A stretch of DNA of 63,017 nt, the filler included, from Octopus bimaculoides (taxonomy: Eukaryota), in the NCBI RefSeq assembly GCF_001194135.2. It is 8 parts of 6 records of this genome, joined end to end, with 100 filler letters (N's around TTAATTAATTAA, not from the genome) between each part and the next. Parts side by side here need not be neighbours in the genome. Positions count along the whole stretch, not along the records: positions 32,518 to 35,816 come from NC_068982.1; positions 35,917 to 46,248 come from NW_026323156.1; positions 46,349 to 48,852 come from NC_069001.1; positions 48,953 to 56,669 come from NC_068998.1; 4 more parts are not named here. One strand, given 5' to 3'. A model generated the notes under the pieces. The model was not told the DNA's origin, searched no databases, and saw only the letters and a program-made list of their open reading frames with translations. The position numbers and the translations under genes are program-made. This document shows, piece by piece, positions 34,851-49,386 of this stretch (positions are counted from its first letter, which is position 1; every line of letters starts with the position of its first letter).

Positions 34851-34922
34851 GGTCTTGATCACAACTGTCCGACGAACGGGAACGTGAAACTCTGTGTGAC
34901 AGTTCTTTGTGATGTTTTGCAG
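34851..34922 (-). CDS. 72-nt cytoplasmic exon (SAKHHKELSHRVSRSRSSDSCDQD)
   Basis: ttttctttccttattaaag acceptor, GTAAGA donor, phase 1 to 1, in frame with the previous micro-exon. Confidence 0.7.
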
Positions 34923-35925
34923 CTTTAATAAGGAAAGAAAATATATTCATGCACACACATACACACACACACATACATCCATGCATATATATATGCATAT
35001 ACATATATATGTATATAAGTATGTGAGTGTGTGTGTATGTGTGTGTGTGTATGTGTGTGTGTGTGCCTATAATCTTTTGTTCGGCTGTGTACGTGTGAAT
35101 ATGTGTATATCTGAAAAGAAAGTGAATCCATATTCCTATGTCATAAAATTCAAAGCTATACACTTCGTCACTACATCCAGAGTAAATTTGTTATTACATC
35201 CAGCGTTATTCATAAACGAAAACTTTCGGAACGACACACCTGCTATCTAGTGCTGAGGTTCATTGCTATTGATTCAGCTCTTTGGAGTCATGTTTGACAT
35301 TCATGATTGACTAGTTGAAGAAATTTCCTCGCTGAAGCTATTTACACCTTCGCGTTAACAATATTTAAACAGCTATAATTGAAAATCTAACCGTACCATG
35401 TGATCACGGATATAGGCATGCACTCCTACAACTCTAACACAACCACAGTACATGCACACACACACACGCACACACATAGATACATACACACAAATACACA
35501 CATAGACACATCGATACATACATAAAGATGTATACAAACATATATATATACATATATGTATATATATATATATATTATTTTGCTTAAAAGAGTTCCAACA
35601 CTGTCTGTTTTTTATGTTTTATTTATATTCCTGCAGAACTAATGTGGGGTATAGAATATGGAATATACAATATATAATATAACATACAATATATAATATA
35701 AAATAAAATAAAAATGGATGGCACCATGAAATAAAGTATTGAATGTAGATGAAATATTGAGTGTTCAATATAAAGGATCAAATATATAAATATATAAATA
35801 TAAATATATATATATANNNNNNNNNNNNNNNNNNNNNNNNNNNNNNNNNNNNNNNNNNNNTTAATTAATTAANNNNNNNNNNNNNNNNNNNNNNNNNNNN
35901 NNNNNNNNNNNNNNNNATATATGCG

Positions 35926-35961
<36 letters not shown>

Positions 35962-36419
35962 CTTGTATTTATAGATCTCTACCAAAAATTTGGTAAAAAT
36001 ATTGTACCTGTTATCAACGTAGCAAAATTCTCATATGAAAGGTTGTTAATCATACAATTTTGTGTGCATATCAATTTAAATAAGAGCTATAACGCGATCC
36101 ATCATAAAAACTTTTTTAAAACCTATGCACATTTCGATGCAATATCCCGACTCACTCCTGCATGTTATAAAAAATGGAATATTGTATCTCTTCAGGGTCA
36201 GATTTGATTAATTCATAGCAGACAGCATTAATAGTTGTCCTTAAATTATATGTGTATAAACTGGTTGAAATGATATGTAACATATTGACACTGCATACAA
36301 TATTGGTTAAGAAAACCGTAAGAGACGCTGTAATTTCAATAAAAACCGTTGGACTTTTGAAAGTAAATAAAACGAAGAATGAAACTAATATGTTATATAT
36401 TATAATAAAAAAATATTTA

Positions 36420-37330
36420 TAAATTAATGGTCAAAGAGAGGTAAATCTAGTAAATAATATTTATGAAATATATAATCTACTCATATGTACATAATGATAT
36501 CAAATAATTATATTTTATTTAAAGTTTAGAACAGTAATGAGACTTCTTATGGTTATGTAAACAAGATAAATTAGAGAATATAAATTGTAAATAATGAATA
36601 ATAATAAGTAAAATAAATTAGGTTACATTCAGATTGCAGCTATCAAAGTTTAAAAAAATTATAATAAATTAACTTAGTAATGGTGTTCAAATACAATATT
36701 AAAAATAATATCAAAAGAAGGAACGGATTTAATCGATTAAGTAAAAAGTAAACAATTATTACGATGTAATCGTTACTATCTCACATATAAATATAAATGA
36801 AAAATTAAGGAATTATGATGTAAAGTAGGTAGATGAATACTACACCATTATATCAAATAATTCATTAGATACTTGAGAAAACAACCAACTCACTTTAAAA
36901 AAATTATCTGTAATATACTATAATAGAAATAAAGTTAACGTAAAAAAATTTTTTCATGGTCAAAGAGAGGTAAATCTAGAAAAATAATATATATTTTTTT
37001 AGAATCTAAATAAATCAGTCAATGTTATTAATCCTATCAAATCATTATATTGATTTTTAAATTAAAATATTTTTGAGACAAATAAAGGATATGTAATCAC
37101 GATAAATAAGAAATTATAAATTACAAAGTAAAAATAAATTAGGTTACACTCAATTAGCAACCATCGAAACTTTAAGTATACATTAACTTAGTAGTAAGAT
37201 TAAATAACTGAAGGGATTAAAATGATAAAGCAAGCAGTCAACCATAATTTCGATGTCATCTATACAAAAATTACATAGAATTATAAGAGAAACTTCAATA
37301 AAGTAGGAACCAAACTTACCATTGTACATA
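36420..37330. repeat. Old AT-rich tandem duplication, period about 525 bp
   Basis: tggtcaaagagaggtaaatctag at 36428 and 36957; aaataaattaggttaca at 36611 and 37132. Confidence 0.75.
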
Positions 37331-37469
37331 TATGAAAAGGTTATATGAAATTAAAGCTAAACAAATGTAATATAATATCCCAGTATGTAGTTAAAGCTAA
37401 ACCAAGTTAAAATATCCTAGTATGTAGTTAACTAATCTCTCCAAAGTAGATTTAAAAAAATAAAAATGT

Positions 37470-45907: not shown

Positions 45908-46349
45908 ATCTCTGTCTGTCTCTCTCTATATATATCTATCTTTATCTCTGTCGGTCTCTCTATATATATCTACATATCTATTTATATTTATCTCTGTCCG
46001 TCTCTCTCTCTCTATATATATATATATCTGTCTATCTTTCTTTCTGTTTGTCTGTCTCTCTCTCTATCTATCTATATCTCTCTGTCTGTCTGTCTCTCTT
46101 TCTCTCTCTCTCTCTATATATATATATCTATCTCTGTCTGTCTGCCTCTCTCTCTCTTTCTATATATATATATCTGTCTCTCTCTCTTTGTACATATATA
46201 TGCATATATATATCTACATATCTATCTATCTTTATCGCTCTCTCTCTCNNNNNNNNNNNNNNNNNNNNNNNNNNNNNNNNNNNNNNNNNNNNTTAATTAA
46301 TTAANNNNNNNNNNNNNNNNNNNNNNNNNNNNNNNNNNNNNNNNNNNNT

Positions 46350-46908
46350 CTTATTTCAGTTCAAGCTAGGCCAAAAGTGGCTGAAACAGCTCACGATATC
46401 AACGATGCGTTTGGCCCAGGAGCCACTAATGAACGTCCAGCACAATGGTGGTTCAAGAAATTTTGTAGTGGTGACAAGAGTCTTGAAGATGATAAGCGTA
46501 GTGGTCAGCCATCGGATGTTGACAACGGTCAACTAAGAGCCTTAGTTGAAGCCAATCCATGCACAACTGTTAGAGAGCTTGCTTCTGAATTAGACATAAT
46601 GTATACGACAATTTCCAACCACTTGAAAGAGATTGGAAAAACAAAAATACTTGAGAAATGGGTGCTGCACGAATTGAACAACAACCAAAAAAAAGCTGAT
46701 TTGAAGTGTCGTCTTCACTTCTTTTACGCAAGAAGAATGACCCATTCCTTGGCCAGATTGTGACTTGCGATTCTTTACAACAACCATGGATTCTTTACGA
46801 CAACCGGCGATGCTCAATTCAGTGGTTGGATGCTGACGAAGCTCCACTGCACTTCCTGAAGCCAAAGTTCCACCAAAAGAAGGTCATGGTGACTGTTTGG
46901 TGGTCTGC
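46350..46908 (+). mobile_element. Mariner transposase fragment
   Basis: QWWFKKFCSGDKSLED, TVRELASEL, KWVLHEL, IVTCD, KVMVTVWWS. Confidence 0.92.
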
Positions 46909-47474
46909 ATACACATTTATGCACACACACACGTGTGTGTGTGTGTATACACACAATTATGAATACAAACACACACACATGGGTGCACAAAGACTCACAA
47001 AAATTAATGACTGGCTCAAGGCCAAACCAAATAAGCAAAATACAAACTATTAATACGACCAGCTCCATATAAATAGGTGTTACTCTTCCATAACTTAATG
47101 AACCACTCCTTATGCCAAAAAAATAACATTCATCTCATACCAAGCAAGCAACATCATTCGACTTCACCCCGCCAAACTTTTGTTAAACACAACCACTGTA
47201 TCCAGATTAACAAATACAATAGAATGGCTTTCGGATGTGAATAAATGTGTCACTAAGTAAGCCAGTGAGACAGCAGAATCGTTAGCACACTGGATGAAAT
47301 GCTCTGTGGAATTTTGTCAATCGTTAAATTATGAGTTCAAATTCCACTGAAGTTGACTTTCTCTCTCATCTTCCCAGGGTTGATGAAATAGGTACCTGTT
47401 TACTACTGGGGTTGATGTAATCGACTTATCCCCTCGCCTGAAGTTGTTGGTCTCGCATCAAAATTTGAAACCAA

Positions 47475-47516
<42 letters not shown>

Positions 47517-49313
47517 TAAATTTAAGGGCTTAGCAAAAGAGTCTAATGGAACAGGTACCAGTCTTGAAGTCAGGAAACAAAGAAAAAAAAAAAGAAAGAA
47601 GACAAATGTGGTGCTCCAGCATGGCCATAGTAAAAAAAAGTAAAACATAAGGGTTTAGAAGATGGGATAGCCTTGGATAGCATTGCCTATATGCAGAAAG
47701 CGCCAAAGCAGACCATTCACTATGCACCGTCTCCCATCCACCTCTCTTAGTCAGTAACTCTGCCACTAAAATGGTACAGCAGCTTTGTACGTAGTTAAGT
47801 TAGATTTTGGTAAATGGAGGGAGAGAGAAAGAGAGAGAGAAAGAGAAAGAGAGAGAGATACGCTGTTTGAAAAAAAAAAAAAAAGAAATAAAAAGAGAAA
47901 AAGAAGGGGGAAAAAAATGAAGATTAGAATCTTAGTAATACTGTGAAATGATGTCGAACAAGTATTTTGAAGATAAGATGAGGAAATTAGATTTTTTTGG
48001 GAAAGGAAAAAAAAACAAAAAACTACCCAGTCTCTGTGCAGNNNNNNNNNNNNNNNNNNNNNNNNNNNNNNNNNNNNNNNNNNNNNNNNNNNNNNNNNNN
48101 NNNNNNNNNNNNNNNNNNNNNNNNNNNNNNNNNNNNNNNNNNNNNNNNNNNNNNNNNNNNNNNNNNNNNNNNNNNNNNNNNNNNNNNNNNNNNNNNNNNN
48201 NNNNNNNNNNNNNNNNNNNNNNNNNNNNNNNNNNNNNNNNNNNNNNNNNNNNNNNNNNNNNNNNNNNNNNNNNNNNNNNNNNNNNNNNNNNNNNNNNNNN
48301 NNNNNNNNNNNNNNNNNNNNNNNNNNNNNNNNNNNNNNNNNNNNNNNNNNNNNNNNNNNNNNNNNNNNNNNNNNNNNNNNNNNNNNNNNNNNNNNNNNNN
48401 NNNNNNNNNNNNNNNNNNNNNNNNNNNNNNNNNNNNNATATATATATATATATATACATATATGCGTATATATATTTATATACATATATGCATACACACA
48501 CACACACAGAGAATCAGATAGACAGATCTGTAGGTGCATTTATGTGTGTACATGCACACATCTATGTATATCTATATATGCATACATATATATATATATA
48601 CGCACACACACACACACACACACATCCACAGATTTAGGTAGATATGTGCATGACGATGTGCAGGCAGGTATGTGTGTGCGTGCACGTGTGCATATATAAC
48701 TACATATATACATATATATATATATACATACACACACACACACACACACACATGGGTGCATGTAATATCATTACAACAGAAAAAATAAAACAAAAAAAGT
48801 ATATATATACATTTTTTTTTATATAATATATTAACTTTTATCATCCCCGCCTNNNNNNNNNNNNNNNNNNNNNNNNNNNNNNNNNNNNNNNNNNNNTTAA
48901 TTAATTAANNNNNNNNNNNNNNNNNNNNNNNNNNNNNNNNNNNNNNNNNNNNTACAGACACATATAGATACATACACAGATCTATCTATCCTATCTATCT
49001 GTCTGTCTGTCTATATGTATGTGCGTGTGTAAGTATGTCTGTATATGTATGTATATGTGTAAACATGAATATATGCATATTTGATAATGTTTCTCAGTGT
49101 GGATGTGGAAGAGAGAGGGAAAGAGAGAAAGAGAGGAAGAAAGCGAGAAGAGAGTGAGCGAGTGATAATCACCAGAAGGTTTGTAGCCCGCATGTCTGTG
49201 TGCCTGTGTGTCTGTCTGTCTATATCCCTCCCTCCCCCTCTCTCTCACATACACTCCTTATATCAGATGATGAAAAATATGTTCACATCACGCCCACCTT
49301 CTAATCCTCTCAC

Positions 49314-49386
49314 TACAACTCTCCGGACGCGCCAGGAAGAAAGACCAGAAGAACACAAGAACTGCTTTTTTTCTGTTCAGTGCCAT
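49314..49386 (-). CDS. Candidate first coding exon (signal peptide) of a type I membrane protein: MALNRKKAVLVFFWSFFLARPESC
   Basis: ATG in gatATGG context with an in-frame TGA 12 nt upstream. Basic n-region, hydrophobic h-region, GTGAGA donor in phase 1 matching the next exon. The link to downstream exons is inferred. Confidence 0.5.

What the first reader, a model, noticed from the sequence alone, without database searches (positions are those of the whole stretch)
34851..49386. Hidden micro-exon gene encoding a mucin-stalk single-pass membrane protein that the ORF track misses
Seen: five minus-strand exons (73, 208, 65, 18, 72 nt) with GT-AG sites whose phases chain without a break (1,1-2,2-1,1-1,1-1). 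Joined product, 145 aa so far: MALNRKKAVLVFFWSFFLARPESCT NERFPPLPPGLKPTASPIPFIETTTTTPSIPEKRMTTVPSIETTEKNPTPGITEMTTKNFSECPQDCSK KNKQLLYFIGVLIIIIAIQAAY MVRRT SAKHHKELSHRVSRSRSSDSCDQD. Knowledge: this layout (signal, O-glycosylatable stalk, TM, basic stop-transfer) resembles sialomucin-type or receptor-stalk proteins. Inference: a possibly lineage-specific surface protein. I recognise no family, and globular ectodomain exons could be hidden in gaps at 44714-45128 or 48042-48437.
Basis: partly seen in the sequence, partly recalled or inferred. Interest (0 to 1): 0.75.

Follow-up and report, generated by a model that had tools for sequence, protein, structure and literature searches.

The report
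Octopus TNF-receptor-like gene, mis-stitched
The proposed five-exon gene is an artefact of joining pieces from three different parts of the genome, but its three middle exons are real, spliced, and form the stalk and membrane anchor of an already annotated octopus gene that likely encodes a TNF-receptor-type surface protein.

Summary
The 145-aa gene does not exist. The window is a pack: exon 1 lies on G000:C18, exons 2-4 on C28299, exon 5 on C2. Exon 5 is a copy of a dispersed inverted-repeat element. Exons 2-4 are real: both junctions occur in 4 of 4 runs laid. Reads leave the stalk exon into a cysteine-rich exon on C28299, and leave the micro-exon into an exon missing from the assembly. Five upstream exons on C28299 encode a 20-cysteine ectodomain; the gene is RefSeq LOC106875873, partial, Octopus bimaculoides. 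A 48-sequence profile matches 4-1BB (E 3.6e-9) and DcR3. A confident model matches TNF-receptor ectodomains. Pfam TNFR_c6 is not met. Relatives are mostly molluscan, Octopus copies form one clade, and no death domain was found in 93 of 93 relatives scanned. Best reading: a death-domain-less TNF-receptor-superfamily protein in a small octopus expansion, likely signalling through adaptor motifs in its tail. Ligand and function are untested. Not a sialomucin, not hidden, not lineage-specific as a family.

The parts
40951..41158 (-). Real exon (208 nt, phase 1-2): Ser/Thr/Pro-rich stalk, residues 168-236 of LOC106875873 (P0002); = G000:C28299:10759-10966
   Evidence: RNA depth about 56-62 over the exon in run X24. 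Its 5' loose end (40 reads) equals the 3' end of exon C28299:17809-17891 at 30 of 30 nt.
40155..40219 (-). Real exon (65 nt, phase 2-1): transmembrane helix, residues 237-258
   Evidence: Junction to the stalk exon in 4 of 4 runs, 36 reads from 22 starts in X24. Hydropathy 2.45 over 19 aa. Predicted helix 237-268.
39568..39585 (-). Real micro-exon (18 nt, phase 1-1): end of the TM helix and basic juxtamembrane residues
   Evidence: Junction to the TM exon in 4 of 4 runs, 57 reads from 31 starts in X24. 47 reads continue into an exon not found in the assembly that resembles a paralog's tail exon on C45919 at 26 of 30 nt (my comparison).
49314..49386 (-).
   Evidence: 1 match, C18. Reads from the stalk exon go elsewhere. 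3 such signal-like phase-1 starts pass a simple filter in 112,224 bases of both strands of the pack. No evident partner exon in 210 kb of the same strand, 37 kb of it N.
34797..34936 (.).
Evidence: Arms 34797-34831 and 34903-34936, 86-94% complementary. 70 matches from 40 scored of 1780 candidates, 76-97% identity outside the self match.

Best explanation
Window exons 41158-40951, 40219-40155 and 39585-39568 are the spliced stalk, transmembrane and juxtamembrane exons of octopus gene LOC106875873, which likely encodes a type I TNF-receptor-superfamily protein without a death domain. Inferred from homology and a model: 18 conserved cysteines form about four TNFR-type cysteine-rich repeats held off the membrane by an O-glycosylated stalk. 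Inferred from paralogs, because this gene's first exon and tail exons are missing from the assembly: a cleaved signal peptide, and a Pro/Ser/Tyr-rich tail without a death domain. Mechanism, inferred from established TNFRSF biology: a trimeric TNF-family ligand would cluster the receptor, and short tail motifs (PxQES, YxxM) would recruit TRAF-type and SH2 adaptors toward NF-kB/JNK-type outputs, as in 4-1BB, CD40 or GITR, rather than FADD/caspase-8. Odds: chimera 0.99; middle exons belong to LOC106875873 0.98; TNFRSF homolog 0.9; no death domain 0.8; TRAF-type signalling 0.5; a TNF-family ligand 0.45.
For: Mapping to three contigs. Junctions in 4 of 4 runs from 4 studies, with loose ends naming the true neighbours. 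Phase chain and identity with RefSeq P0002 on a 33,526-bp contig, the length of C28299. 18 Cys invariant in 8 of 8 close rows. A profile of 48 relatives against PDB sequences gives 16 matches at E<1e-3: 13 TNFRSF9, 2 DcR3, 1 ELR1 (its TNFRSF membership is recalled); best E 3.6e-9. AlphaFold2 model with pLDDT 93-98 over residues 11-160. Foldseek gives 72 matches at E<=1e-3; 33 of 34 listed titles name a TNFRSF receptor; best RANK 2.5e-6, prob 1.00. VIA: GITR Z 5.4, 3.1 A over 90 residues; 4-1BB 1.1 A over 55 residues. UniRef names two O. vulgaris relatives 'TNFR-Cys domain-containing'; 4 of 13 named distant relatives carry a TNFR/NGFR name. No Death-domain hit in 93 of 93 distant relatives scanned nor in 9 of 9 close ones. 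A PxQES motif lies in the tails of P0004, P0008, P0009 and P0011 but not P0007. The genome holds a TNF ligand domain (PF00229).
Against: P0002 does not hit Pfam TNFR_c6 even at E<=1. Only 9 of 93 relatives hit it, 1 over the cut-off. Shallow profiles found no TNFRSF chain in the PDB. The deep profile includes relatives with weak TNFR_c6 hits, so that link is transitive. Whole-ectodomain superpositions on four-repeat receptors are poor (TM <=0.40, rmsd 14-26 A), and VIA Z is only 4-5.4, mostly over residues 102-163. Atlas scores are 0.80-0.86, lead level only. One relative is labelled 'Thyroglobulin type-1 domain'. No tail motif exceeds shuffle expectation (best p about 0.07-0.1). This gene's own tail and first exon were not seen, many relatives are fragments, and some paralog tails are short and lack the motifs (P0005, P0024).
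Confidence: 0.85

Rival explanations
1. One reading: one five-exon gene for a 145-aa sialomucin-like membrane protein.
For: Splice sites, phases and the open frame are as stated; two of the four junctions are real.
Against: The segments lie on C18, C28299 and C2. Loose ends at both outer splice sites lead to other exons in 4 of 4 runs. Exon 5 is a repeat copy.
Confidence: 0.01
2. The ectodomain is TNFR-derived, but the protein works without a TNF ligand, as an adhesion, recognition or phagocytic receptor that signals through tyrosine motifs.
For: The long tails hold 9-11 tyrosines, with a YxxM in 4 of 4 (P0004, P0007, P0008, P0009). The stalk diverges faster than the ectodomain (39-41% against 59-76% identity among Octopus copies). 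The model's repeat arrangement does not superpose on straight four-repeat receptors. A preprint reports no clear correlation between ligand and receptor homolog counts across invertebrates (10.1101/2024.07.27.603686, section 5).
Against: The motifs are not above chance singly. A TNF ligand exists in the genome, and TNFRSF ectodomains bind TNF-family ligands by default (established knowledge).
Confidence: 0.3
3. This copy is mainly a short-tailed or decoy receptor, as the RefSeq model (stop 13 codons after the micro-exon) suggests.
For: P0002 and P0003 read through the micro-exon donor. X24 depth is about 6.5 just past the micro-exon, against about 50-60 on the exons. Paralogs P0005 and P0024 have short tails.
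Against: 47 reads and 3 of 3 contig sets splice onward to a tail exon; no contig covers the read-through; the X9 contig runs 366 nt further.
Confidence: 0.12
4. The cysteine-rich ectodomain is of EGF, furin-like or ephrin-receptor-like origin and only resembles TNFR repeats.
For: Weak exon-level Pfam hints: cEGF E 0.022, FXa_inhibition 0.068, Ephrin_rec_like 0.03. Ephrin_rec_like in 4 of 93 relatives.
Against: All 16 PDB sequence matches at E<1e-3 and nearly all top fold matches are TNFRSF. RANK_CRD_2 is among the same weak hints.
Confidence: 0.05

Closest known systems
RefSeq LOC106875873, partial (Octopus bimaculoides, XP_052834200.1; P0002)
   Same: Same gene: contains the three window exons and five upstream exons, on a contig of the same length.
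   Different: RefSeq calls it uncharacterized, lacks the first exon, and ends by reading through the micro-exon donor; RNA shows onward splicing as the main form.
Octopus sinensis LOC115224785, LOC115224755, LOC115224693, LOC115224825; O. vulgaris 'TNFR-Cys domain-containing' proteins
   Same: Same 20-Cys spacing, stalk and TM; 59-76% ectodomain identity; one clade at 100/99.
   Different: Stalks only about 40% identical; tails from 32 to 231 residues.
Molluscan TNFRSF9-like / TNFR-Cys proteins (Liolophura, Pomacea, Haliotis, Plakobranchus, Elysia, Babylonia, Pecten, Mytilus, Ostrea)
   Same: Shared 18-Cys core, single-pass layout, no death domain detected.
   Different: About 26% ectodomain identity (Liolophura, Pomacea); lack Cys41 and Cys166, which occur only in Octopus rows.
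Vertebrate non-death TNFRSF receptors: 4-1BB/TNFRSF9, GITR/TNFRSF18, CD40, RANK; decoy DcR3
   Same: Profile and fold matches; the last repeats superpose on 4-1BB at 1.1 A over 55 residues. Tails without a death domain that carry TRAF-interacting motifs define this group (PMC3697994, passages).
   Different: 17-27% identity; no orthology claimed; 69-residue mucin-like stalk; predicted repeat arrangement fits GITR better than the straight receptors; ligand and TRAF binding untested.

Membership tests
TNF receptor superfamily | One or more TNFR cysteine-rich repeats, by sequence homology | tested here: met
   48-sequence profile: 16 PDB sequence matches at E<1e-3, TNFRSF9 3.6e-9, DcR3 5.2e-9; 18 conserved Cys. 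Transitive; shallow profiles failed.
TNF receptor superfamily | Pfam TNFR_c6 (PF00020) over its cut-off, as a proxy | tested here: not met
   No hit on P0001-P0004 at E<=1; 9 of 93 relatives hit, 1 over the cut-off. The genome-wide PF00020 search found other loci (C3, C7), not C28299.
TNF receptor superfamily | TNFR repeat fold | tested here: met
   Model pLDDT 93-98 over residues 11-160; Foldseek and VIA lists dominated by TNFRSF. A prediction; Z 4-5.4; residues before about 50 barely tested by VIA.
TNF receptor superfamily | Single TM segment and no other domain type in the ectodomain (criteria read in 10.1101/2021.12.26.474206, passages) | tested here: met
   One TM helix; no other Pfam domain over its cut-off.
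TNF receptor superfamily | N-terminal signal peptide (type I topology) | tested here: inconclusive
   This gene's first exon was not found; my candidate proved to be a repeat. Paralogs begin with hydrophobic N-termini, and two transcript contigs extend 104 and 349 nt beyond the known exons.
TNF receptor superfamily | Binds a TNF-family ligand | not testable with these tools
   Needs a binding assay. A ligand domain exists in the genome.
Death-receptor subgroup | Cytoplasmic death domain | tested here: inconclusive
   This gene's own tail is missing from the assembly; none detected in 9 of 9 close and 93 of 93 distant relatives, many of them fragments.
TRAF-binding (non-death) subgroup | TRAF-interacting motif in the tail | tested here: inconclusive
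   PxQES in P0004, P0008, P0009 and P0011, absent from P0007, P0005 and P0024; not above shuffles. The motif patterns are recalled, not taken from a call.
   At least 167 residues of Cys-rich ectodomain precede the 69-residue stalk.

The most novel reading that the evidence does not exclude
Octopus has its own tandem family of death-domain-less TNF receptors in which a new cysteine pair (Cys41 in the first repeat, Cys166 at the ectodomain base; found only in Octopus rows) clamps the ectodomain into a bent or closed shape or cross-links receptors, giving a ligand specificity or pre-assembly unlike other TNF receptors, read out by tyrosine-rich tails.
Probability: 0.2. Interest if true: 0.5.

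Novelty: new member of a known kind. Interest (0 to 1): 0.25.

Why it matters
The finding as written is an artefact of the packed window. What remains is modest but useful. It gives a family to an 'uncharacterized' octopus gene, corrects its 3' end, and points to a molluscan group of TNF-receptor-like proteins that Pfam mostly misses and that has expanded in Octopus. TNF-receptor inventories of cephalopods built on Pfam or BLAST would likely undercount these. If the Octopus-only cysteine pair reshapes the ectodomain, it would be a structural variant of the TNFR fold worth solving.

Tried and rejected
1) The five-exon chain: rejected. 2) My own candidate signal-peptide exon at C28299:27951-27811: rejected; it is a dispersed repeat, with 39 other scored copies at 93-96%. 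3) Exact search for the true next exon in G000: 0 matches; a 3,340-base gap lies downstream on C28299, and absence is not shown. 5) Run search: no RNA holder listed on record; 4 of 24 runs were laid, about 6% of X24 was read, X1/X5/X9 are RNA by guess, and 11 loose-end rows were not shown. 6) Complex of the ectodomain with three copies of the one TNF domain found: no answer, neither for nor against. 8) PDB sequence search with shallow profiles: no TNFRSF hit; P0008 alone gave DR6 at E 0.039. 9) Literature: none of three LOC ids occurs in the library. Three topic searches (listings only) showed no paper on this family. The 'tnfr' marker of immature optic-lobe neurons (10.1101/2022.06.11.495763, passages) could not be tied to this gene: the one supplement held for PMC9815951 had no hit, and bioRxiv supplements, which could bear on it, are closed. 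PMC6472339 and PMC9389742 (passages) gave nothing on this family. 10) Earlier findings: none by sequence or words, one unrelated by place. 11) Of 110 new relatives, 93 were scanned with Pfam, 20 were looked up by name, and 41 went into the deep alignment.
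Full report
Observation. But the window is a pack, with joints at 35817-35916, 46249-46348 and 48853-48952 inside the finding. Searched singly against G000, exon 1 maps to C18, exons 2-4 to the 33,526-bp contig C28299 and exon 5 to C2. The stretch 35917-46248 equals C28299:5725-16056.

Exon 5 is a repeat. It lies between inverted arms, and one search lists 70 matches from 40 scored of 1780 candidates. 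Eight other copies align across it with length changes in A runs, and its donor is present in 1 of 9 rows. My filter had let it pass as the only 1-to-1 exon candidate in the pack, which shows how such a copy can mimic an exon. Exon 1 is unique sequence of unresolved status: 3 similar signal-like starts pass a simple filter in 112,224 bases, and no partner exon was evident in 210 kb downstream.

RNA. I laid 4 of 24 listed runs, from four studies, on the part of C28299 that holds exons 2-4. Both junctions appear in 4 of 4 runs: 36 reads from 22 starts and 57 reads from 31 starts in the raw RNA run X24, and one spliced contig in each of X1, X5 and X9 (RNA by guess). Six X24 reads carry two extra letters at the first joint. 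At the 5' end of the stalk exon, 40 reads and all three contigs continue into a sequence equal at 30 of 30 nt to exon C28299:17809-17891, not to exon 1. At the 3' end of the micro-exon, 47 reads and all three contigs continue into a sequence that is not exon 5, has no exact match in G000, and resembles the start of a paralog's tail exon on C45919 (26 of 30 nt, my comparison). Depth just past the micro-exon donor is about 6.5 against 50-60 on the exons, so the RefSeq read-through end is at most a minor form.

The real gene. Five exons on C28299 (24617-24533, 20347-20216, 19540-19412, 18821-18749, 17891-17809) chain in phase into the stalk exon. One donor is GC, or a GT four bases on with the same protein. 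One of these exons retrieved LOC106875873, partial, Octopus bimaculoides, 276 aa, at 100% identity. The first exon was not found: my candidate was a repeat. Anatomy: 20-Cys ectodomain (residues 1-167), stalk with 47% Ser/Thr/Pro (168-236), TM helix (about 243-261), basic micro-exon, unseen tail.

Family. Close relatives are four O. sinensis loci, each on a contig of 25,544,736 bp (so likely one cluster), O. vulgaris proteins, an Argonauta fragment and unnamed Logan proteins. G000 holds 16 matches on 11 contigs, with at least three copies of one ectodomain exon. A profile search of 1.84 billion representatives gave 115 proteins at E<=1e-3. Of 20 looked up, 13 are named: 12 molluscan and 1 from an Ancora sagittata library. 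Eighteen cysteines are invariant in 8 of 8 close rows and present in 31-48 of 48 deep rows. In a 55-row ectodomain tree (midpoint root, no outgroup test) the 8 Octopus rows form one clade, 100/99.

What it resembles. Pfam TNFR_c6 misses P0002 and hits 9 of 93 relatives, 1 over the cut-off. Shallow profiles found no TNFRSF chain. The 48-sequence profile gives 16 PDB sequence matches at E<1e-3: 13 TNFRSF9, 2 DcR3, 1 ELR1. The model from the same alignment has pLDDT 93-98 over residues 11-160. Foldseek lists RANK, DcR3, 4-1BB, CD40, DR6 and TNFR2 (best E 2.5e-6), but with TM <=0.40 and rmsd 14-26 A over the whole ectodomain. VIA gives GITR Z 5.4 (3.1 A, 90 residues) and 4-1BB 1.1 A over 55 residues. 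So the modules are TNFR-like, while their predicted arrangement differs from the straight four-repeat receptors. Atlas hits point the same way at lead level.

How it likely works. No death domain was detected in 9 close and 93 distant relatives. Paralog tails are Pro/Ser/Tyr-rich, with a PxQES motif in four and YxxM in five of the ten proteins scanned, none above chance alone. TNFRSF receptors without a death domain signal through TRAF-interacting motifs (PMC3697994, passages), and non-death TNFRs are common in protostomes (10.1101/2021.12.26.474206, passages). Squid have TRAF2, 3, 4, 6 and 7 (PMC9389742, passages), and this genome has a TNF ligand domain. I therefore commit to a ligand-clustered, TRAF-recruiting receptor for immune or developmental signalling. 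Ligand, adaptor and role are inferred. The main rival is a TNFR-derived receptor that works without a TNF ligand, through tyrosine motifs.

Novelty. The gene is annotated, O. vulgaris relatives already carry an automatic 'TNFR-Cys' label, and molluscan TNFR expansions are reported (10.1101/2024.07.27.603686, passages and section 5). I found no paper naming three of these loci. The one unusual feature is Cys41 with Cys166: Cys41 in 4 of 47 and Cys166 in 5 of 39 rows with a residue, all Octopus. This is a single evolutionary event, so it is no covariation test, and I could not read the model's coordinates. Verdict: artefactual five-exon model around a real fragment of an ordinary-looking TNFRSF member; interest 0.25.

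Noticed in passing
window 37699-38889, minus strand: A 396-codon stop-to-stop frame in the intron after the micro-exon that looks to me like a decayed Penelope-type retroelement (recalled resemblance); Pfam gave no hit at E<=0.01.
   Followed up: partly
window 45408-45716, plus strand: DDE_3 transposase fragment (E 2.4e-7, over the cut-off) in the intron upstream of the stalk exon.
   Followed up: partly
G000:C28299:19412-18821 (L002): The intron can be read as GC-AG or, shifted by four bases, as GT-AG, with the same protein; not tested with reads.
   Followed up: no
   Followed up: partly
L017:6223-6479 (G000:C93613:26.2-26.5 kb): The first ectodomain exon of a paralog occurs twice in tandem about 100 bases apart: a local duplication or an assembly artefact.
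   Followed up: no
L021 (C134239) and L022 (C26:72.9-73.1 kb): Tail-exon copies with in-frame stops, likely pseudogene fragments of the family.
   Followed up: no
P0001 (O. vulgaris, not in the window): The predicted protein holds two ectodomains, probably two neighbouring paralogs fused by gene prediction.
   Followed up: no
G000:C3:73.256 Mb, C7:76.44 Mb and C3:54.127 Mb (L064): Canonical TNFR_c6 loci over the Pfam cut-off, and one TNF ligand domain, elsewhere in this genome.
   Followed up: partly
P0040 (not in the window): A family member from an Ancora sagittata library; this is a gregarine by my recall, so host contamination is likely.
   Followed up: no
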